From: Tubulanus polymorphus
Lineage: Eukaryota; Animalia; Nemertea
Length of the DNA: 64,000 nucleotides
Direction of reading: 5' to 3'
Assembly (NCBI RefSeq): GCF_964204645.1
Contig: NC_134025.1
Span: 3,162,001 to 3,226,000, forward strand
Part shown: piece by piece, positions 654-63,929 of the stretch
Layout of the letters: every line of letters starts with the position of its first letter
Numbering within the stretch: position 1 is the stretch's first letter
Notes under the pieces: model-generated
The model's database searches: none
What the model was told of the DNA's origin: nothing
Seen by the model: only the letters and a program-made list of their open reading frames with translations
Position numbers and translations under genes: made by a program

Positions 654-1671
654 ATGTTGAATTATATCGTCATCGGGCTGTTGGTCGGGTTTGCAAATGC
701 GGGCATGTATGTGAAGAACTGTGATGGTCAGTATACTAATGAGTCAAGAAGTGATTTGAAAATTGTTTCGTCGATATCGATATATCAATACATTGTTCAA
801 ACAGATTGTCACATAGCTAAGTGAAAAATTACAAATCTATATGAAACTCATTTCATCCATTTTTCGATTGATTTTATTATTTTGTAGTATTTATTTGTTC
901 TGTAAAATTAGAAATTATTGAATAGGCCTATAATGATAGAACTGTGATAAATTTCAGAAAATAGACTTACTGACGGATAACTCATTGACACATATATATT
1001 TTGTAGGGAGTCAAAATAAACTGATTGACTTTACAAAAGTTAGTATTACACCCCATCCTATCAAGTTTCCGGGTAGATTGAACATCGACGCGTTAGCAAC
1101 TGTAAATAGGGAAATAGGCGGTCAGATCGATGTCAAAGTGTCATTAAAGAGGAAAGTTTGGTTCGCTTGGGTTCCCATACCATGCATAAAAGAGATCGGG
1201 TCATGGTAAGAATCGCTGATTTACAGGATAAAAGTCGATACAACTGCCAGGAAATTTTAGATGATTCTACATTTCGTTTCAGCGAATACAAAGATATTTG
1301 TTCGCGATTGAAACAGTTTAGTTGTCCCCCTGAAGTCGTTGAACAGGGAATTCAATGCCACTGTCCTTTCAAAAAAGGCCCGATGAGTTTTAACATGGAC
1401 AACATCATTGTACCTTCAATCCCAACAGGTCTGGGGTTACTTGCTGACGTAAGAGATCATATTTTCTATCAAACTTTGTCACATTCAATCAGTATAACAC
1501 TTCATGTATACACTAACAGAGATACTAAACGACAAACTTCGCAAATCTGCTTTTCCCAAGGACACAGTTTTCATTTTCTATTTTCAGGGTCAGTATTATG
1601 CTAAAGCTCGCATCATGGCCGACGGAGTTGAAATCGGTTGTATCGAAGCGGAAGTAGGACTTGACTCTTAA
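654..1671 (+). CDS. GM2A: GM2 activator-like (ML-domain) secreted lipid-binding protein, copy 1; exons 654-726, 1007-1205, 1283-1448, 1588-1671
   Basis: GT-AG exons join in frame. Signal peptide MLNYIVIGLLVGFANAG is followed by the GM2A cysteine pattern NCD...WVPIPCIKEIGSCEYKDIC...CPPE...QCHCPFKKG...GQYYAKARIMADGVEIGCIEAEV. Confidence 0.9.
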
Positions 1672-2104
1672 ATGACGACGACTACTTCGATATCTGATGC
1701 TCGATATCTTAAGCAAATGATAGCTTATGTCTACAAAAAACATGTTTTTCATTTGAGAAAGAAACAAATGGATTTTGTCAACAAAATATGAATTTATTCT
1801 TATGAGTTCTTCATATGTGCAATTCATTTTTCTTTATCGTTTATAATCTTAGCATACTGTGGCTTATGAATAGTAGCTTATATATTTTTTTCACCCAGAT
1901 AATCTTGTTCTATCGATTTGAAATCATTCTGTCCTCGGCAGAATTTTAGTGCACGCGTTAATCACGGCCTATTAAATAGTTATCTCTACAATCATTTAAT
2001 CAATAGTGGATTCAGGTGCAGATTTATCGGTGGTCGACACTTATATGTAATATTTAAGAATATGAGATGACTTTGTCTTGGGAAGTCAACTATTCGCAGA
2101 CAGA

Positions 2105-3079
2105 ATGAATCGCCGATTGAACAGTAGTACCGGTGCTCATGGTGGCTTACAGATCGGTAAACCATTTTTCGCTTCGATTCTACTCAACATTCTACCGGTA
2201 CAAGCCCAGAAGGAACCGTTTCTTCGCATGTTCGCTCTGATTTCGCTACCGACGATCTACGGTGTCGGACTTCTCGGTAATCTATGTAGTTTATTTACGA
2301 TGATGAGTGCACGTTTTCGCGGTCATTCCTACGCGAATTATTTAGCCGCTCTTGCTCTCGCCGATCTCGGCTGTTCGCAAGTATTTTTCATCCCGATTCC
2401 TAATTACATATTAGGTTATCCTTACATAACAATAAAACACGATTGGTGCGCCATATATACTTATGTACTAAACATTCCATTCTATCTCGGGTCTTATCTA
2501 GTGGTTTTCATCGCGTTGGAACGACTTATTTTGGTTCTAAAACCATTTACAGCGAGGATTCTGTGCACGGCAAAGTTTGCCCGGATCAACACTTTGTGTT
2601 TGACCCTCGCTTCAATGGCTATCCCTTCTTATAGCCTGTTCATAGTGAAATATGAAGATCATCTCGGATGTTACGTCAGTCGTCTCCATCAACGTATACA
2701 TTTTCTATTCAGCGTCATTATGAAATATTACATTCCAGCCATTCTTATCATCATCTTCAACATCATCATCATCGCTAATCTACAGAAACAGAAAGATTTC
2801 GGTTCGGGTGAAATGAAAAGCGCGCAAACGATGAGAATAACGATGATGTTGTTGTCCGTATCGGCGATGTTTACGGCTACGACGTTTCCACCCGCTATTT
2901 CCAGCACTTTCACCAGTCTCATGAAAGAACGACCGAAATATATCAATCGTCTGAACGCCATTACAAACCTCATGCAAAATTCAAACTACGCGACAAACTT
3001 TTATCTTTACCTTTTGACCGGCAAAGAGATAAGGGCACATTTATTCGATAAACTTAGAAGTTGCTGTCGGACAAGGTAG
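2105..3079 (+). CDS. Intronless rhodopsin-like (class A) GPCR, orphan peptide/chemoreceptor-like, copy 1
   Basis: Seven hydrophobic segments; GN in TM1, LALAD in TM2, ERL at the DRY position, NFYLY at the NPxxY position, C-terminal CC. ATG 2105 is shared in frame by both copies. Confidence 0.9.
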   Translation: MNRRLNSSTGAHGGLQIGKPFFASILLNILPVQAQKEPFLRMFALISLPTIYGVGLLGNLCSLFTMMSARFRGHSYANYLAALALADLGCSQVFFIPIPNYILGYPYITIKHDWCAIYTYVLNIPFYLGSYLVVFIALERLILVLKPFTARILCTAKFARINTLCLTLASMAIPSYSLFIVKYEDHLGCYVSRLHQRIHFLFSVIMKYYIPAILIIIFNIIIIANLQKQKDFGSGEMKSAQTMRITMMLLSVSAMFTATTFPPAISSTFTSLMKERPKYINRLNAITNLMQNSNYATNFYLYLLTGKEIRAHLFDKLRSCCRTR

Positions 3080-4299
3080 GCTATACAATTCATTCATGAA
3101 ATTTTTCGTCGAACACATTGAATCCTTTGAGTAATCTCGATTCCCACAAAGTAAAACACCGCGGCGGGTTTTCATCACTACTCATGTTTTGATCGGATTC
3201 ATGGAAATCTATGTCTTCCACAATTTATTCGCGACATATTCAGAAAACGGTTTTCCACACAGTTTCCTAATTTGAACAATTTCCAAATATTTCATTAGTT
3301 TTCGTATTTTCTGATGAGGTTTCCTATGTAATTAAATAGGCCTTCTTTTGTTCGAAATCCAACGAAATCCAATGAAAATCGTATAGGCTAGTCAATCATA
3401 CAGTGCGCAGGATGAATTCTGTGGGATGAATGTTTGAAATAAAGGATCCTCGGGCATAATGTGTAAAATGTTTAGAAAATCAGTTTCAACATAAATGGAA
3501 TTGATCTGCCCAAGATCCCGACCGAATTTGGAACCTATGTCAACGCCACGAGCAATTATCTCAACAATTGCTCGTAGGTCAACGTATGTATAGAATATCC
3601 TGGTCTAATGATAACTAGAACAAATTCACTGTTGCCGATTTGATTTGATTCGAAAAATGACCGATAAATCGAGCTTTAACTCGGGCCTGATTAAATTGTA
3701 TCAACATATTCCAGGGAACGATACCGCACCAAGCTGTTATTTGTTATTAGTGTCGACGGTAAAGAAATCGGATGTCATGAAGCTGAAGTTAAACTTGAGT
3801 CTAAATTCATTGTTAATGTCACAAGAAACTTGAGAAAAAATAAATTTTCGATTCAAAAAAAAAATTACGCTGTCGTTTTAGACATGGTTGTATTCAAATG
3901 TTAAGCGCTTATCTTCATATCCGCTATATAATAAACATAAAAGCTTAGAAGCTAAGCGCCTCTAAAAACTGATAACCACAAATCTGAAATTACTAAAAGA
4001 TCAATTATCAAAATCATTCCAAGTGCGAACGATATCACATGTAAATATAGCCCGGTATATATGTGTGTATATATATATATATTCTGTTTTCAACACTACA
4101 TGATCTTGATGGATAGTTGGCATAATATGCATAAATTGACTATATAATTTTTCATGGCGCGGAAATGTGCTTATCATTCATTTAAATTAATAACAGCTGT
4201 TCGATAATATTCAAAAATCACATAAAATCTACCGATCCCCGCCACTATATAAAGCCGAGTACACGATCGAGGAGAACGTGTTGAACTCAAACAAGCATC

Positions 4300-5284
4300 A
4301 TGTTGAATTATATCGTCATCGGGCTGTTGGTCGGGTTTGCAAATGCGGGCATGTATGTGAAGAACTGTGATGGTCAGTATACTAATGAGTCAAGAAGTGA
4401 TTTGAAAATTGTTTCGTCGATATCGATATATCAATACATTGTTCAAACAGATTGTCACATAGCTAAGTGAAAAATTACAAATCTATATGAAACTCATTTC
4501 ATCCATTTTTCGATTGATTTTATTATTTTGTAGTATTTATTTGTTCTGTAAAATTAGAAATTATTGAATAGGCCTATAATGATAGAACTGTGATAAATTT
4601 CAGAAAATAGACTTACTGACGGATAACTCATTGACACATATATATTTTGTAGGAAGTCAAAATAAACTGATTGACTTTACAAAAGTTAGTCTTACACCCC
4701 ATCCTATCAAGTTTCCGGGTAGATTGAACATCGATGCGTTAGCAACTGTAAATAGGGAAATAGGCGGTCAGATCGATGTCAAAGTGTCATTAAAGAGGAA
4801 AGTTTGGTTCGCTTGGGTTCCCATACCATGCATAAAAGAGATCGGGTCATGGTAAGAATCGCTGATTTACAGGATAAAAGTCGATACAACTGCCAGGAAA
4901 TTTTAGATGATTCTACATTTCGTTTCAGCGAATACAAAGATATTTGTTCGCGATTGAAACAGTTTAGTTGTCCCCCTGAAGTCGTTGAACAGGGAATTCA
5001 ATGCCACTGTCCTTTCAAAAAAGGCCCGATGAGTTTTAACATGGACAACATCATTTTACCTTCAATCCCAACAGGTCTCGGGTTACTTGCTGACGTAAGA
5101 GATCATATTTTCTATCAAACTTTGTCACATTCAATACCAAACGACAAACTTCACAAATCTGCTTTTCCCAAGGACGAAGTTTTTTATTTTCTATTTTCAG
5201 GGTCGTTTTTATGCTAAAGCTCACATTATGGCCGACGGAGTTGAAATCGGTTGCATTGAGGCTGAAGTAGAACTTGAATCTTGA
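4300..5284 (+). CDS. GM2A: GM2 activator-like protein, copy 2; exons 4300-4372, 4653-4851, 4929-5094, 5201-5284
   Basis: Same four-exon structure with an intact frame; last exon GRFYAKAHIMADGVEIGCIEAEVELES*. Confidence 0.9.
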
Positions 5285-5714
5285 GAATGACGACGGCTCC
5301 TCGACATTTGTATTTAGATAGATGATAGCTTTATCTACAAAAAACTTCTTTTTTTTTCATTTGAGAAAGAAACAAATGGATTTTGTCAGCAAAAATATCA
5401 ATTAATCTTATGAGTACTTCACGTGTCCAATTCATTTTTTATCGTTGATTATCTTAGCTTATGAATAATAGCTTATATTCTTTTCACCCAGTTAACTGCC
5501 TTCCTGATGGATGGAATCCTACCGCTGGTGTAAATGCTAGTTCCCCAGCCAGCCTGCCGATACAAAAAACCCAGCCAGTTACACTCTTCAGTCATTTAGA
5601 TTAATAACAGCTGTTCAATAATGTTCAAAAACCCCAAAAAAATCAACCGTTCCCCACCACTATATAAAGCCGAGTACACGATCGAGGAGAACGTGTGGAA
5701 CTCAAACAAGCATC

Positions 5715-6697
5715 ATGTTGGATTATATCGTGATCGGGCTGTTGGTCGGGTTTGCAAATGCGGGCATGTATGTCAAAAACTGTGATGGTCAGTATAGTAT
5801 TGAGTCAAGAAGTGATTTGAAAATTGTTTTGTCGATATCGGTATATCAATCGTGTACATTGTTCCAACAGATTGTCACATAGATAAGTGAAACATTATAG
5901 ATCTATATGGAACTGTTCATCCATTTTCCGATTGATTTTATCGTTGTGTAGTTTTTCTTTGTTCTGTAAATAAGAAATTTTTGTATAGGCTTACAATAAT
6001 AAAACTGTGATAAATTTCAGAAAATAGACTTACTGACGGATAACTCATTGACACATTATATTTTGTAGAAAGTCAACTGATTGACTTTACAAAAGTTAGT
6101 CTTACACCCCATCCTATCGAGTTCCCGGGAACATTGATGCATTAGTAACTGTAAATAGGAAAATAGGCGGTCAGATCGATGTCAAAGTGTCATTAAAGAG
6201 GAAAGTTTGGTCCGCTTGGGTTTACATACCATGTGTAAAAGAGATCGGGTCATGGTAAGAATCGATGATTTACAGGATAAAAGTCGATACAACTGCCAGG
6301 AAATTTTATATGCTTCTATATTTCGTTTCAGCGAATACAGAGACATTTGTCCGCGATTAAACCAGTTAACTTGTCCCCCTGAAGTCGTTGAACAGGGAAT
6401 TCAATGCCACTGTCCTTTCAAAAAATGCCCGATGAGTTTTAACATGGACTACATCATTATACCTTCAATCCCAACCATTTATGTAAGATATCATTTTTTC
6501 TATCAAACTTTTTCACATTCAATCAGCATAAGAATTCATGTATACACTAACAGAGAAACTCAAACGGAACACACAAATCTGCTTTTTCGAAGTTTTTCAT
6601 TTTTTATTTTCAGGGTCATTATCATGCTAAAGCTCGCATCATGGCCGACGGAGTTGAAATCGGTTGCATCGAGGCTGAAGTAGAACTTGATTCTTGA
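5715..6697 (+). pseudogene. GM2A: GM2 activator-like copy 3, frameshifted
   Basis: Exon 2 lacks 7 nt (TAGATTG) near 6129, giving TAG at 6143-6145. It also has an in-frame 6-nt loss in exon 2 and a shortened end of exon 3. TATA box and splice sites remain. Confidence 0.85.
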
Positions 6698-7151
6698 GAA
6701 TGACGACGGCTACTTCGGTTTTTTATATCTAAATAAATGAGCATATTTGTATCTAGATAAATGAGAGCTTTATCTACAAAAACATTTTGTTTTTCATTTG
6801 AGAAAGAAACAAATAGATTTTGTCAGCAAAAATATCAATTCATTCTTGTGAGTACTTTTTTCTATCGTTGATAATCTTAGCATACTGTGGCTTATGAATA
6901 GTAGCTTATATATTTTTTCACCCAGTTATTCTTATATCATTCTTATTCTATCGATTTGAAATCATTCTGTCTTCGCGAGAATTGTAGTGGACGCGTAAAT
7001 TACGGCCTATTAAGTAATTATCTCTACAATCATTTGATCAATAGTGAATTCATGTGTCGATCATCGACACTAAGTATATATATATATATATATATATAAC
7101 TAAGAATATGAGATGACTTTGTTTTTGGGAAGTCAACTATTCGCAGACAGA

Positions 7152-8126
7152 ATGAATCGCCGATTCAACAGTAGTACCGGTGCTCTTGATGGCTTACAGA
7201 TCGGTAAACCATTTATCGCTTCGATTCTACTCAACATTCTACCGGTACAAGCCCAGAAGGAACCGTTTCTTCGCATGTTCGCTCTGATTTCGCTACCGAC
7301 GATCTACGGTGTCGGACTTCTCGGTAATCTATGTAGTTTATTTACGATGATGAGTGCACGTTTTCGCGGTCATTCCTACGCGAATTATTTAGCCGCTCTT
7401 GCTCTCGCCGATCTCGGCTGTTCGCAAATATTTTTTATCCCGATTCCTAATTACGTATTAGGTTATCCTTACATAACAATAAAACACGATTGGTGCGCCA
7501 TATATACTTATATAATGAACATTCCATTTTATCTCGGGTCTTATCTAGTGGTTTTCATCGCGTTGGAACGACTTATTTTGGTTCTAAAACCATTTACAGC
7601 GAGGATTCTGTGCACGGCAAAGTTTGCCCGGATCAACACTTTGTGCTTGACCCTCGCTTCAATGGCTATCCCTTCTTATAGCCTGTTCATAGTGAAATAT
7701 GAAGATCATCTCGGATGTTACGTCAGTCGTCTCCATCAACGTATACATTTTCTATTCAGCGTCATTATGAAATATTACATTCCGGCCATTCTTATCATCA
7801 TCTTCAACATCATCATCATCGCTAATCTACAGAAACAGAAAGATTTCGGTTCGGGTGAAATGAAAAGCGCGCAAACGATGAGAATAACGATGATGTTGCT
7901 GTCCGTATCGGCGATGTTTACGGCTACGACGTTTCCACCCGCTATTTCCAGCACATTCACCAGTCTCATGAAAGAACGACCGAAATATATCAATCGTCTG
8001 AACGCCATTACAAACCTCATACAAAGTTCAAACTACGCGACAAACTTTTATCTTTACCTTTTGACCGGTAAAGAGATAAGGGCACATTTATTCGATAAAC
8101 TTAGAAGTTGCTGTCGGACAAGGTAG
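7152..8126 (+). CDS. Intronless class A GPCR, copy 2 (in-frame upstream ATG at 7113 possible)
   Basis: Same motifs as copy 1, with 10 amino-acid differences. Confidence 0.9.
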   Translation: MNRRFNSSTGALDGLQIGKPFIASILLNILPVQAQKEPFLRMFALISLPTIYGVGLLGNLCSLFTMMSARFRGHSYANYLAALALADLGCSQIFFIPIPNYVLGYPYITIKHDWCAIYTYIMNIPFYLGSYLVVFIALERLILVLKPFTARILCTAKFARINTLCLTLASMAIPSYSLFIVKYEDHLGCYVSRLHQRIHFLFSVIMKYYIPAILIIIFNIIIIANLQKQKDFGSGEMKSAQTMRITMMLLSVSAMFTATTFPPAISSTFTSLMKERPKYINRLNAITNLIQSSNYATNFYLYLLTGKEIRAHLFDKLRSCCRTR

Positions 8127-15673: not shown

Positions 15674-16979
15674 ATGGGAAACTCTATAAAACCTCATATC
15701 GAAACAGCCCAGAAAACAGGAGCCTGTCAACTGAGTAAGATGGGGATAAGTGAGGTAAAATTGCAGTAATAATCACCGTAAAGCTTACAAGAATTAATGA
15801 TTTTGATGGAATAATCTTCAATCTACTACTAATCTTCTCTAATCTTCAAACTTCATTTTTTCACTTCATTGACACTACTACAGCATACTGAAGATATATT
15901 CCGAATCATGTTACTGTTGTCACTTATTTGACTCACCACTTTACTCTATTGTCTGTCGCCGAGAGCTCAGAGTGGTGGGTGGACAAATCAAGACGTGCAT
16001 TGCTCTCACACTTCACCCTTGCAGATCTCTTTTTCTATAGCATTCGGCATTTTTATTGTCCATTTCTGTTGTATCTATTTTACAGTTTCCCCCAGAACTG
16101 AAGAGATTGACCAAAAACTTAAGAACACTAGATCTATCAGAAAATAAACTAGCTGAACTTCCCAATGATATTGGATCATTTACGATGCTGAAAAACATGT
16201 CATTAAATTCTAATAGATTAGGTAGGCTACGTAAATATTTTAACAGAATCCATGATGCGATTTTGATATATCAACTAGACTAATTGATATGAATTGTTAT
16301 CTTTTCAGCTGCAATTCCAGAAACAATTGGACAACTAAAAAAATTGGAATCGCTGAGCCTGAATTCAAACCGACTACTTTCACTACCTCAGTCATTTAAT
16401 CAGTTGAACAATCTGCGTAGTATCACAGTTAATAACAATTTCTTAAAAGAGTTCCCGGCTCAACTGGGGGGCCTGAAAAATCTGGACTCTCTTGACCTGT
16501 CTCATAATAAGATAACCGTCGTACCGGATGGAGTGAAACATTTAAACGTGGTTGAAATAAACCTTAATGAAAATCAGGTAGGTATTTCTAAACAGCAGCC
16601 TTTAACATTGTGTGAAATAAACACTGTCAGAAATATATCACCTACAGTTTGGATTCTAATCTTTCAGGTATCAACTTTATCGGAAGCGATTGCTGAATGC
16701 CCGAGATTAAAAGTATTACGTGTAGAAGAAAATTGTCTCGAATTAAGTGCCTTCACGCCTCGTATTCTAAAGAACTCGCAGATTTCTTTGTTGGCAATTG
16801 AAGGAAATCTGTTTGAGCAAAAATCATTTCATAATCTCGATGGATATGAACAGGTTTGATTTTATTATTCAATTCCAGTACTTTTTGCATACAAATATGT
16901 TGATGAATGTTTCTTAAGACATTTCTTCTCATTTCAGTACATGGATAGATACACAGCCACTAAAAAGAAGTTCGCTTGA
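15674..16979 (+). CDS. LRRC57: Leucine-rich repeat-containing protein 57; exons 15674-15754, 16086-16221, 16309-16577, 16668-16853, 16938-16979
   Basis: N-terminus [16 protein letters not shown], LRRs, [17 protein letters not shown]-terminus [13 protein letters not shown]; AATAAA at 16984. Confidence 0.95.
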
Positions 16980-60695: not shown

Positions 60696-63600
60696 TCAGA
60701 AATTAGCGACATCGGCGAGAGTTGAAGCAGCAGAGAGAAACGTGTACGTCACGACCGATAGATGTTTCTTGAAAGTCTCCCACCGTTTTTTCTGGTTCGG
60801 GTCATCTTCAATTTCAAACAGAGCGTCAACAAGACCAGGAAGACTTACACCAGAGTAGTTATCAGTTGAACTAGGCGCGTATATTATATGTCTGAAAACA
60901 AAAACAAACTACACTGGTTTCATACGAATGCACTGAATCTATATTTAAAATATTGCATATTTGATTGAAACACGATAAGTCTTGGTAGAGTTAGTTTTTT
61001 TATTTGCTGCTGCCTGATTATTGGTTCTTCACTTGAAGAGACATTCGTCGTATCACCGATGATGGATGACTGGTTACATACCGATCTCTAGGTCGACCTG
61101 GCAGACCATTCGGATCCGTGAAAGCTCGTTCCAATTGCATCATTTGATCACTGGCTTTACGTGCGTCCAAAGGACTGAAAATAAACAGCGATCAATCAAA
61201 ACCCATTCAATAGTATGATTATCGTTATTGGGCGATTGAGTGGCTGTTACTGAAACTTACTTATTCCTGTTAATAGAGGGTAGTAATGAATGGAAATCTT
61301 GGCAGGATTGTGAAAAAATGTCAGCCGCTTCTTTCAAATCAGCTGTAATATTAAAAATATGGTCATTAGAACCATCGCATAGATTCGATTTTGATTAAGA
61401 TCGCACGGCTATCACTTGCCCACAGATATGTTGTGCTTTTCTAACAACGTTCCGTATTCTTTGATAAAGGAATTAACAAATCCAGTTATAGAATTCCCAT
61501 AGTCTCGCACGTCGAATGGCAGTATATACGTATCAGCGATAGATCTCGCAACTTCTCCCCAATACTGAGTTACAGCCGCATGATACTAAAAAAACAAACA
61601 TTCTAATTGAACGATTCAATGAATACCAAACATCTATATAGGTATTACGCTAAATGCTTTACCTTAAACGTCGGATCAATGATATCATTCATCAATGAAA
61701 ATGTCTCATACACGGAATGATACAACGGATAACTAGATAATTTCTTCAATTTCACCTAGAATCAGGAAAACTCGATTATAATCATTATTGAATGTTTTGT
61801 TCTTCTGAAACGAACGGCGTGATATACATATAGATGGCATAGATAGAGGGCATTCAAGCATCGACATGCTCAAAAAGTACAGAAATATACGTTGATGTAC
61901 CTCATCATAAGTATGATAGAAATCTGCACTGGTTATTCCGCACGTTACAAAAGAAGCATAATCGCTACCACTACCCAAAACTAGAATTCTAAATATATTT
62001 TGATAAGATTAATGAACAACCTTGTCATACGTATATCGAGTATCCATACTTGACACCCCTAATTTCGTGATAAACGGAGCATAATCACTACCACTGCCCA
62101 ATATCTGAATACTGCAAAGATAAAACAGCTCCGAAATGCTCCATCATTGTGAAATAATAGATTATTGAAAACCGTCTGATAATCTTACGTTGGTACGGTT
62201 GAGTTTGAAAACTGTGCCCATTTGTCATACAACGTCTTCTTTCCAAAACCTACTTCAGTCGTGTTTGGATTTGGTACCTTCGGAAAATATTGAAATCGCT
62301 TTTCAATTTCATACAAATGGTCATCATTTGAAATAGAAACATCAATGATTTATATTTACTAATTTTGCTGCTTCGTGTAAGACTTTCGAAAGAAGCGGCG
62401 TTCCTTTAACTTGTATGGAATGATTACCTAAAATAAACAGAATGAAATGAAAAGATTGACAAAGATATGAAAAATTAAGTTTTGAAAATATGAGCTCAAT
62501 CATATACTCACCCTGAACTGCGATGTCAACATTAAGGTAAGCTACAGCCCGTTCACCTAGACTCTTAGTGAAATGCTATATATTGAAAGTGAAAAAAAAT
62601 TGAAAGTTGAGTAAAATGGAGCCATATGCAGATTACACACTACAATAAGACATGTTTTTATATTATACCTCAACCCATTCCGTCGATCCAACTAATCCAT
62701 ACTCTTCTGCACCCCAACTACAGAACATCAATGACCTTCGAGGTCTCCATCCTTGAATTATTCGAAATTAATATATATAAAACATTTATCATTTATGATT
62801 CAAGTAATGCGTGGATATGAATCAATGACGAACCTTCTTTTACAAGTTTTCCAAATACGCGGCTGAGTTCGACCATTGCTGCAGTTCCGCTGGTTGGGTC
62901 AACGGCTCCGAAAACCCAAGCGTCTCTATGATTACCTAATAGTACGTATCTGTCAGGCTCCATATCTCCTCTTATAGTTCCGATAACATTATAGACAGTT
63001 TTTATTATATTATACGTTTGAACGTTCAACTGAACTTGCCTGAAAATTAAGGATGAAACATTTACATTGTACATATAGTGGAACCTCGTTATAACGAACT
63101 TACGGAGCCCCTGAGGGGACATGGTTAGAAATAGATATCTTTTTCCGTTCGAACGAAATAATCTTTTCGTGGGAACGAAATGATTTCGTTGGAACGAAAA
63201 AAATTTATATTAATCATGATATCGGGGCTCCGTACGACATCCAGGGGACGTACAAGAAAATATGTTCGTTATAACTTATAATTCGTTTTCGGTATCAATT
63301 TCTTGAACTGTGGTATTAATCACTGAACTTACCATGAACTGTCAACGAATCCAGGTCCAAGTTTGTATTTTATCCCTGGTATGGCACCTTGCCATTTATC
63401 AGGGGCATCCTTACCAGCGAGATTTCTGGAATTTGATAAGACCGAAGAGTATATGATAGATGTCTCTGAAATTATAGGAGCACAAGAATAACATCTGAAT
63501 AAGTCCACACTGATTTGTTATGCCCCGACCTTAGCAATGTCTGTGCATCGTCGTAACCTATCGGATGACTAGGAATTTTCGGGATATCGATATCCTCTTC

Positions 63601-63929
63601 AGAAATACGATATGCAGAAGCTAAAATTGATAGCAAACAATTCAAAACCCGTTTCGTAGAAATAACTACAAACTGGATGTACAAAACGATTTCTTCCCCC
63701 CACGAGTCCCGAATTTTAACATGTCCTTTAGTTTCTAAAACTTACATATCGAAGGATAACCAAGTGTTTGTGGATCTCCCTTGTCTATTAGCAACGTTCC
63801 TCTTTGCACACCTGTGCCGGGTAGCCACCACGTTTCAGGGAATACCTTGACATTTGTATCTGGTGCGTAATTTGCGGGATCACTGTATAAAATCATCCCT
63901 TTACAACCGAACTCCTCCCCAAATTTCAC
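60696..63929 (-). CDS. NAALAD2: Glutamate carboxypeptidase II / NAALADase (M28B) peptidase, 3' part; exons 63929-63746, 63620-63530, 63425-63333, 63039-62834, 62751-62669, 62575-62512, 62427-62360, 62277-62189, [62111-62021 or 61988-61901], 61755-61663, 61585-61420, 61342-61261, 61174-61082, 60891-60696
   Basis: [65 protein letters not shown]. Zinc ligands and catalytic Glu are present. The 5' end is outside the window; FOLH1 versus NAALAD2 orthology is unresolved. Confidence 0.93.
63101..63234. mobile_element. Small MITE nested in a Tc1/mariner-like remnant
   Basis: TIR TACGGAGCCCC / GGGGCTCCGTA inside a sequence starting AGTGGAACCTCGTTATAACGAAC. Confidence 0.5.

What the first reader, a model, noticed from the sequence alone, without database searches (positions are those of the whole stretch)
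61901..62111. GCPII/NAALAD peptidase with a swappable substrate-pocket exon
Seen: tandem paralogous exons A (62111-62021, [30 protein letters not shown]) and B (61988-61901, [29 protein letters not shown]). Both are phase 2 to 0 and open, with only 32 nt between them, shorter than any intron in my models here, and joining them breaks the frame. Known: in human GCPII this segment carries G518/N519 and the S1 arginine patch R534/R536; GCPIII has Ser in place of N519. Aligned positions 519/534/536 are S/D/R in A and S/D/Y in B. Inference: sterically enforced mutually exclusive splicing yields two enzymes with different specificity.
Basis: partly seen in the sequence, partly recalled or inferred. 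Interest (0 to 1): 0.8.

Follow-up and report, generated by a model that had tools for sequence, protein, structure and literature searches.

The report
Swappable substrate-pocket exon in worm peptidase
A ribbon-worm membrane peptidase related to human PSMA carries two copies of one exon that lines its substrate pocket and splices in one or the other, which likely gives two enzymes with different substrate preference; database isoforms of a priapulid worm swap the same segment, likely by a separate duplication.

Summary
Exons A (62111-62021, 91 nt) and B (61988-61901, 88 nt) are paralogous, 32 nt apart, in an M28B (GCPII-like) peptidase of Tubulanus polymorphus. Spliced contigs show all four predicted junctions in one run, three in a run of a second study, and no A-B joint. 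RefSeq already models both isoforms. B is under purifying selection (dN/dS about 0.2-0.26). Correction: neither isoform should act like GCPII, as five glutamate/acid-binding residues are replaced (N257T, R463Q, N519S, R534D, K699N). A holds the commonest animal state (S/D/R); B is derived (S/D/Y) and loses the last arginine of the S1 patch. New here: Priapulus caudatus isoforms differ only in the same segment (16 of 30 positions, 0 of 800 outside), again replacing R536. Position 536 is the pocket residue that other animals vary between gene copies. Different specificity is inferred, not tested. Exon swaps that retune enzymes are a known kind (coq-2); I found no report for this family.

The parts
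62021..62111 (-). Alternative exon A (91 nt, phase 2 to 0); ancestral-type pocket S555/D570/R572 (= GCPII 519/534/536)
   Evidence: Spliced contigs in X2 and X4; RefSeq X1 and X3; keeps 9 of 9 family-conserved columns
61989..62020 (-). 32-nt spacer GT...AG between A and B; in-frame TAA if retained; only YTRAY match puts a branch A 12 nt from the donor of A
   Evidence: no contig joins A to B
61901..61988 (-). Alternative exon B (88 nt, phase 2 to 0); derived pocket S555/D569/Y571/H572, one residue shorter
   Evidence: Spliced contigs in X4 (both junctions) and X2 (downstream junction); RefSeq X2; keeps 8 of 9 conserved columns, dN/dS 0.20-0.26 against A
62189..62277 (-). Constitutive exon upstream of the pair (89 nt, ends in phase 2)
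   Evidence: joints 62189>62111 and 62189>61988
61663..61755 (-). Constitutive exon downstream of the pair (93 nt; carries the equivalents of Y549, Y552 and zinc ligand H553)
   Evidence: joints 62021>61755 and 61901>61755; alignment
60698..63929 (-). 3' part (residues about 255-786) of an M28B / GCPII-like type II membrane di-zinc peptidase gene, 14 exons per isoform in the window; the 5' part lies beyond 64000
   Evidence: spliced contigs, exon model, tblastn of RefSeq proteins, Pfam PA + Peptidase_M28 + TFR_dimer

Best explanation
A tandemly duplicated exon of a Tubulanus M28B peptidase is spliced one-or-the-other into the mRNA, and the two resulting enzymes likely differ in the residue they accept in the S1 pocket. 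Shown: both forms are spliced; each alone keeps the frame; all zinc ligands and the catalytic glutamate lie outside the swapped exon and are intact; B is under purifying selection. Inferred, splicing: the 32-nt spacer is too short to be excised and the branch point of B lies almost on the donor of A, so the spliceosome would have to choose one exon; double inclusion, skipping and retention all give early stops and would be decayed. Inferred, enzyme: R210/Y552/Y700 (carboxylate anchors) are kept, while N257, K699, R463, N519 and R534 are replaced, so both forms would be non-glutamate-specific exopeptidases, most likely acting on dipeptides or free amino ends, with the near-invariant Asp at 534 as a candidate amino-group anchor. 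A keeps one arginine of the S1 patch (R572) and would favour acidic or polar P1 residues; B has none (Y571, plus H572, F570, A568 and a one-residue deletion) and would favour neutral or hydrophobic ones. Odds: mutually exclusive splicing 0.95; steric cause 0.8; not a glutamate carboxypeptidase 0.85; measurable specificity difference 0.65; dipeptidase/aminopeptidase type and direction of the switch about 0.4.
For: Junction contigs in two studies; RefSeq X1/X2/X3; frames; intron sizes; dN/dS 0.20-0.26, and 10 of 20000 neutrally mutated copies of A keep as many conserved columns as B without a stop; the one variant seen in B is synonymous; residue table; AlphaFold model of B with 96-row alignment, mean pLDDT 90.2, blocks over the exon 82-95, D569 and Y571 two apart on one strand 566-573, TM 0.94-0.95 to GCPII, GCPIII and NAALADase L; R463/R534/R536 define acidic P1 preference and K699 the P1' glutamate preference in GCPII (PMC9768917, PMC10794815, PMC10865363); position 536 takes 19 residues in 146 diverse representatives while 519 is S in 124 and 534 is D in 89, and differs between gene copies in 16 of 21 species; Priapulus isoforms swap the same segment and also replace R536.
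Against: No activity data for either isoform or for any close invertebrate relative; the Fasciola enzyme gave no activity in amino-, carboxy- and endopeptidase screens (PMC9768917). No close relative shows both exons. The two runs are not on record as RNA and may be the evidence RefSeq itself used, so they are not independent of it. Contigs give no ratio or tissue pattern. Several surface columns of the exon vary more than 536 (entropy up to 3.5 bits against 1.94), so variability alone does not prove a specificity role. The model of B leans on an alignment of mostly A-type rows and has no ligand or metal; no usable model of A was obtained. YTRAY occurs near the acceptor in only 5 of the 13 other introns, so the branch-point call is weak.
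Confidence: 0.65

Rival explanations
1. B encodes a folded but inactive or weakly active subunit; the swap switches activity off, damps it through A/B heterodimers, or serves a non-catalytic binding role.
For: B is the only row with a gap at that place among the rows that have the segment and has H at 537 (3 of 87 rows); it is the longer branch of the pair (0.53 against 0.05). The Fasciola relative showed no activity; a clam NAALAD2 is proposed to act like a transferrin receptor (PMC12896564).
Against: B keeps G-S-G-S-D, G and D534 (8 of 9 conserved columns); all metal ligands and E424 are shared; the model folds with high confidence; non-R residues at 536 are common in intact family members.
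Confidence: 0.15
2. Both isoforms have about the same activity; B persists as a tolerated duplicate constrained only to fold, or differs only in stability or expression.
For: Purifying selection shows constraint, not a new function; no assay exists; 17 of 29 residues are identical.
Against: The changes include R572Y at a known S1 residue; in both species with a swap the derived copy loses R536; whole-gene copies in other animals change the same residue.
Confidence: 0.15
3. Origin rival: the two-exon arrangement is ancient (protostome ancestor) and was lost or is unannotated in other lineages, rather than arising twice.
For: The Tubulanus and Priapulus genes fall in one weakly supported protostome group (72/98); both derived copies lose R536 and are one residue shorter; the AU test does not reject TubB+PriB as a clade (p 0.24); gene conversion could make copies within a species look alike.
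Against: PriA+PriB group at 95/92; forcing TubB+PriB costs 12.9 log units; 2 of 2 informative sites group by species; TubB and PriB share 8 of 29 residues against 17 of 29 and 14 of 30 within species; the deletions are at different places; 12 of 17 shared residues of A and B use the same codon (8.0 expected at saturation, p 0.04-0.07).
Confidence: 0.2
4. Exclusion is achieved by decay of frameshifted A+B transcripts or by splicing regulators, not by the short spacer.
For: Both exons are 3n+1, so A+B is out of frame; 14 of 29 C. elegans clusters rely partly on decay (PMC4165533); the genome-wide minimum intron size is unmeasured.
Against: The spacer is under half the shortest other intron of this gene and below published steric limits; no stable RNA structure across the region (z -0.75).
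Confidence: 0.12

Closest known systems
coq-2 exons 6a/6e (Tan et al. 2020, PMC7434440; passages read)
   Same: Tandem homologous exons, not multiples of three, spliced mutually exclusively; one copy resembles the family norm and the other remodels the enzyme core; found in several invertebrate phyla with origin (shared or independent) left open.
   Different: coq-2 switch is proven genetically and its derived residues are invariant across phyla; here no assay exists, the enzyme is a peptidase, the derived copies differ between phyla (Y against M at 536), and the spacer is 32 nt against 678 nt in C. elegans coq-2.
C. elegans gly-5 9b/9c, gly-6, egl-15, let-2, bet-2 short-spacer clusters (Kuroyanagi et al. 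2014, PMC4165533; passages)
   Same: Spacer too short to excise (14-34 nt where given).
   Different: Those exons are 3n; here they are 3n+1, so steric block and frameshift decay could both act.
Human NAALADase L / ileal aminopeptidase (PDB 4TWE)
   Same: Best PDB match of both exons (E 3e-7 for A, 0.034 for B); S at 519 and D at 534.
   Different: Has A at 536 and keeps R463; its C-terminal part is far from this protein (E 0.13 against 1.5e-14 for GCPIII); no exon swap known to me (recalled). The primary paper was not held; its aminopeptidase activity is taken from PMC9768917 and PMC10794815.
Human GCPII (PSMA) and GCPIII
   Same: Same fold (TM 0.95), domains, zinc ligands, E424, R210, Y552, Y700.
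   Different: N257, R463, R534, K699 (and N519 of GCPII) are replaced in both isoforms; N/R/R at 519/534/536 occurs in 1 of 146 representatives.
Priapulus caudatus NAALAD2-like isoforms X1/X3 and X2 (XP_014674342-5)
   Same: Isoforms identical outside the homologous segment; one S/D/R form and one derived form lacking R536.
   Different: Known only from database proteins; genomic layout, spacer and reads not checked; keeps R463.

Membership tests
Homologous mutually exclusive exons | Adjacent paralogous exons, same phases, similar length | tested here: met
   91 and 88 nt, phase 2 to 0, 17 of 29 identical
Homologous mutually exclusive exons | Each exon spliced to the same flanking exons | tested here: met
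   4 of 4 junctions in X4, 3 of 4 in X2
Homologous mutually exclusive exons | Never included together | tested here: inconclusive
   No A-B joint in 2 spliced runs and no tandem segment in 353 proteins, but contigs drop rare forms
Sterically enforced exon pairs | Donor-to-branch-point distance below the spliceosome minimum | tested here: inconclusive
   Whole spacer 32 nt, other 13 introns 77-293 nt; species minimum and true branch point not measured
M28B peptidases | TM + PA + M28 + TFR-dimer domains and GCPII fold | tested here: met
M28B peptidases | Zinc ligands H377, D387, E425, D453, H553 and catalytic E424 | tested here: met
   all present in both isoforms
M28B peptidases | Measured peptidase activity | not testable with these tools
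   needs recombinant enzyme
GCPII/GCPIII glutamate carboxypeptidases | S1' glutamate recognition by K699 and N257 | tested here: not met
   N733 and T299 in both isoforms
GCPII/GCPIII glutamate carboxypeptidases | S1 arginine patch R463/R534/R536 | tested here: not met
   Q/D/R in A, Q/D/Y in B
NAALADase L (NAALADL1) aminopeptidases | S519/D534 pocket | tested here: met
   shared with most non-mammalian rows (84-85 of 87), so not diagnostic
NAALADase L (NAALADL1) aminopeptidases | Orthology | not tested
   No named NAALADL1 row was in my trees; whole protein is closer to GCPIII/GCPII (E 1e-195/1e-187) than to 4TWE (1e-156)

The most novel reading that the evidence does not exclude
The exon carrying the S1 strand of M28B peptidases is a recurrent specificity cassette: a nemertean and a priapulid each duplicated this same exon independently and replaced R536 in the new copy, doing by splicing what molluscs, brachiopods, hemichordates and amphibians do by whole-gene duplication; the isoform pairs are natural single-variable experiments that would reveal the substrates of the orphan invertebrate enzymes.
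Probability: 0.4. Interest if true: 0.68.

Novelty: new member of a known kind. Interest (0 to 1): 0.5.

Why it matters
Substrates of non-mammalian M28B peptidases are unknown (screens of the Fasciola enzyme found none; the C. elegans enzymes are predicted to differ from GCPII). Two isoforms identical in 756 residues and different in 13 pocket-exon positions, with a second such pair in Priapulus, isolate the S1 strand as the single variable. They would test which residues set specificity in the PSMA family and whether the S/D/R pocket, not the human N/R/R one, is the ancestral state. A repeated duplication of one enzyme exon in two phyla would add a clear case of convergent alternative splicing. 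The splicing mechanism itself is known, and both isoforms already sit unremarked in RefSeq.

Tried and rejected
No genome is held for the window, so minimum intron size and other Tubulanus gene copies were not surveyed. No RNA holder was listed as such. Single-sequence fold of isoform A failed (pLDDT 35.5) and is not used. Search for B-like fragments among proteins of 30-430 residues gave 6 hits, best 58% identity, none a close relative; the four I read are A-type. No third exon copy and no second GCPII-like gene in the window. No docking/selector structure: inverted repeats are short, and the region folds no better than shuffles (22 of 100 as good). Contig depths (499 and 254 in X2; 3.6 and 3.3 in X4) are not used as isoform levels. 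Of 30 clusters looked up, 27 had several members and 8 hold records labelled as isoforms; only Tubulanus and Priapulus show an exon-confined swap (members under 240 residues dropped); absence elsewhere is weak because it rests on annotation. The first 47-row careful tree did not finish (quick tree shown); a 22-row tree did. AU tests rejected neither TubB+PriB (p 0.24) nor Tubulanus+Priapulus genes as a clade (p 0.16). The ESM Atlas added only generic M28 clusters. Earlier scan notes: nothing. Paper searches listed no report of mutually exclusive exons in this family or of this gene; the library lacks most subscription papers. Tykvart 2015 and Barinka 2008 were not held. Rejected: B as pseudo-exon or assembly artefact (DNA run X1 spans both exons in one contig; B is spliced and constrained); allelic or paralog mix-up (0 of 756 differences outside the exon).

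Full report
Observation. The minus strand at 60698-63929 holds the 3' two thirds of a spliced gene. Exons A (62111-62021) and B (61988-61901) are flanked by AG/GT, are 91 and 88 nt, enter in phase 2 and leave in phase 0, and are 32 nt apart. With A alone or B alone the frame is open to the natural stop; A+B, neither, and retention of the spacer all stop early. They share 17 of 29 residues, against at most 9 for any other stretch in six frames of the window. The 13 other introns of this gene in the window are 77-293 nt.

Splicing evidence. Five runs hold the region, none on record as RNA. Two (X2, study P1; X4, study P2) give contigs that skip GT-AG introns; X1, X3 and X5 read through them. X4 has one contig upstream-A-downstream and one upstream-B-downstream; X2 has upstream-A-downstream and B-downstream, the latter ending beside a synonymous variant in B. 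No A-B joint was listed, which contigs cannot prove absent. DNA run X1 spans both exons in one piece, so the tandem is not an assembly artefact of the window, though X1 may be its source. An upstream exon matches RefSeq XP_074651751.1 of Tubulanus polymorphus at 100%. That record (X2) carries B; X1 and X3 carry A; X1 and X2 differ at 13 of 30 positions in the segment and 0 of 756 outside. RefSeq may rest on the same runs.

Is B functional? Nei-Gojobori dN/dS between A and B is 0.20-0.26 over three gap placements (29 codons, dS near saturation, so rough). B keeps 8 of 9 family-conserved columns; 10 of 20000 copies of A mutated at random to the same divergence do so without a stop. A model of isoform B from a 96-row alignment has mean pLDDT 90.2, with D569 and Y571 two apart on strand 566-573, and matches GCPII, GCPIII and NAALADase L at TM 0.94-0.95. 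The model leans on mostly A-type rows; the single-sequence model of A failed.

What enzyme? Domains are PA, Peptidase_M28 and TFR_dimer. By GCPII numbering, H377, D387, E424, E425, D453, H553, R210, Y552 and Y700 are kept in both isoforms; N257, R463, N519, R534 and K699 are T, Q, S, D and N. In GCPII the R463/R534/R536 patch sets acidic P1 preference and K699 the P1' glutamate preference (PMC9768917; PMC10794815; PMC10865363; GCPIII S509 for N519 in PMC10382371; passages read in each). So neither isoform should behave as a glutamate carboxypeptidase. In 87 rows outside mammalian GCPII, 519 is S in 85, 534 is D in 84 and 536 is R in 55; in 146 diverse unnamed representatives S/D/R is the commonest triple (25) and N/R/R occurs once. 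A is therefore the ordinary animal state and B the derived one. Both exons match human NAALADase L best in the PDB, which has S/D/A and is described as an aminopeptidase; its primary paper was not held. The rest of the protein is closer to GCPII/III. I infer an exopeptidase for dipeptides or free amino ends, with A keeping one S1 arginine and B none.

Position 536 as the tuned residue. It takes 19 residues in the 146 representatives and differs between gene copies in 16 of 21 species that I grouped by hand (near-identical copies included, Ptychodera poorly aligned). Its entropy is 1.94 bits against 0.16-0.53 for 519, 534 and 537, but several surface columns of the exon vary more, so this supports without proving a specificity role.

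A second case. Priapulus caudatus X1 and X2 differ at 16 of 30 positions in the homologous segment and 0 of 800 outside; X1 is S/D/R and X2 S/D/M. Its genome could not be read, but the exon borders appear conserved widely: Lingula models that start or end in the flanking introns, a Mytilus model with an insertion at the upstream border and a frog model that skips to the downstream border all break at the same places. Among 27 multi-member clusters (8 with labelled isoforms) only these two show the swap; Lineus, sister to the Tubulanus gene (92/93), has one A-type record. On the 30 columns PriA+PriB group at 95/92, forcing TubB+PriB costs 12.9 log units but is not rejected (p 0.24), 2 of 2 informative sites group by species, and 12 of 17 residues shared by A and B use one codon (8.0 expected; p 0.04-0.07). 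Two independent duplications are favoured, not shown.

Why exclusive. Any branch point in a 32-nt spacer is under the 50-nt donor distance used as the steric criterion in human (57 of 629 clusters; PMC5740500) and the spacer is under the 40-nt limit in C. elegans (PMC4165533). The only YTRAY match puts the branch A 12 nt from A's donor, but that motif is a weak predictor in this gene (5 of 13 other introns). Both exons are 3n+1, so decay is a back-up. No stable RNA structure was found. What chooses A or B is unknown.

Comparison and verdict. Homologous exclusive exons cluster near functional sites in general (PMC7954323), and coq-2 is a proven substrate switch of the same design in several invertebrate phyla (PMC7434440). 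Five searches listed no such report for M28B peptidases or this gene; no supplements were read, and the coq-2, human and fly exon catalogues in supplements could bear on the novelty claim only for those species. Verdict: a real, spliced, constrained exon pair in a substrate pocket, already modelled by automatic annotation but apparently undescribed, with a likely convergent twin in Priapulus; function untested. New member of a known kind; interest 0.5.

Noticed in passing
window 63088-63275: MITE-like element in the 293-nt intron: 15-nt terminal inverted repeats at 93%, inner inverted repeats, many related contigs with loose ends and internal deletions in all four runs; single copy in the window.
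   Followed up: partly
window 61419-61418: GC-AG intron (donor GCAAGT) after the 166-nt exon, confirmed by spliced contigs of X2 and X4.
   Followed up: yes
P0041 (RefSeq X3), residues 215-216 of X1: A third isoform lacks two residues in the PA domain, probably an alternative acceptor 6 nt apart; lies beyond the window end.
   Followed up: no
window 62105-62104 and 61981-61980: Both A and B have a second AG 7-8 nt inside the exon; out of frame and not used in the contigs seen.
   Followed up: partly
window 61883-61896 and 61991-62004: 12 of 14 nt match between the intron starts after A and after B, possibly a remnant of the duplication, possibly chance.
   Followed up: no
window 1110-8123: Tandem blocks: a rhodopsin-family GPCR reading frame at 2066-3076 (7tm_1) with a near copy at 7104-8123, and a reading frame without Pfam match repeated at 1110, 4756 and 6159.
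   Followed up: no
window 16293-16856: Leucine-rich-repeat coding stretch.
   Followed up: no
P0001, P0002, P0003: Mollusc database models that fuse tandem M28B gene copies; the two halves of the Liolophura model differ at 536 (R and S).
   Followed up: partly
Haliotis, Dreissena, Lingula, Crassostrea/Saccostrea copies (P0035, P0097, P0152, P0096, P0024, P0011): Gene copies that lose R536 often also lose R463, suggesting the two S1 arginines change together; not tested on a tree.
   Followed up: no
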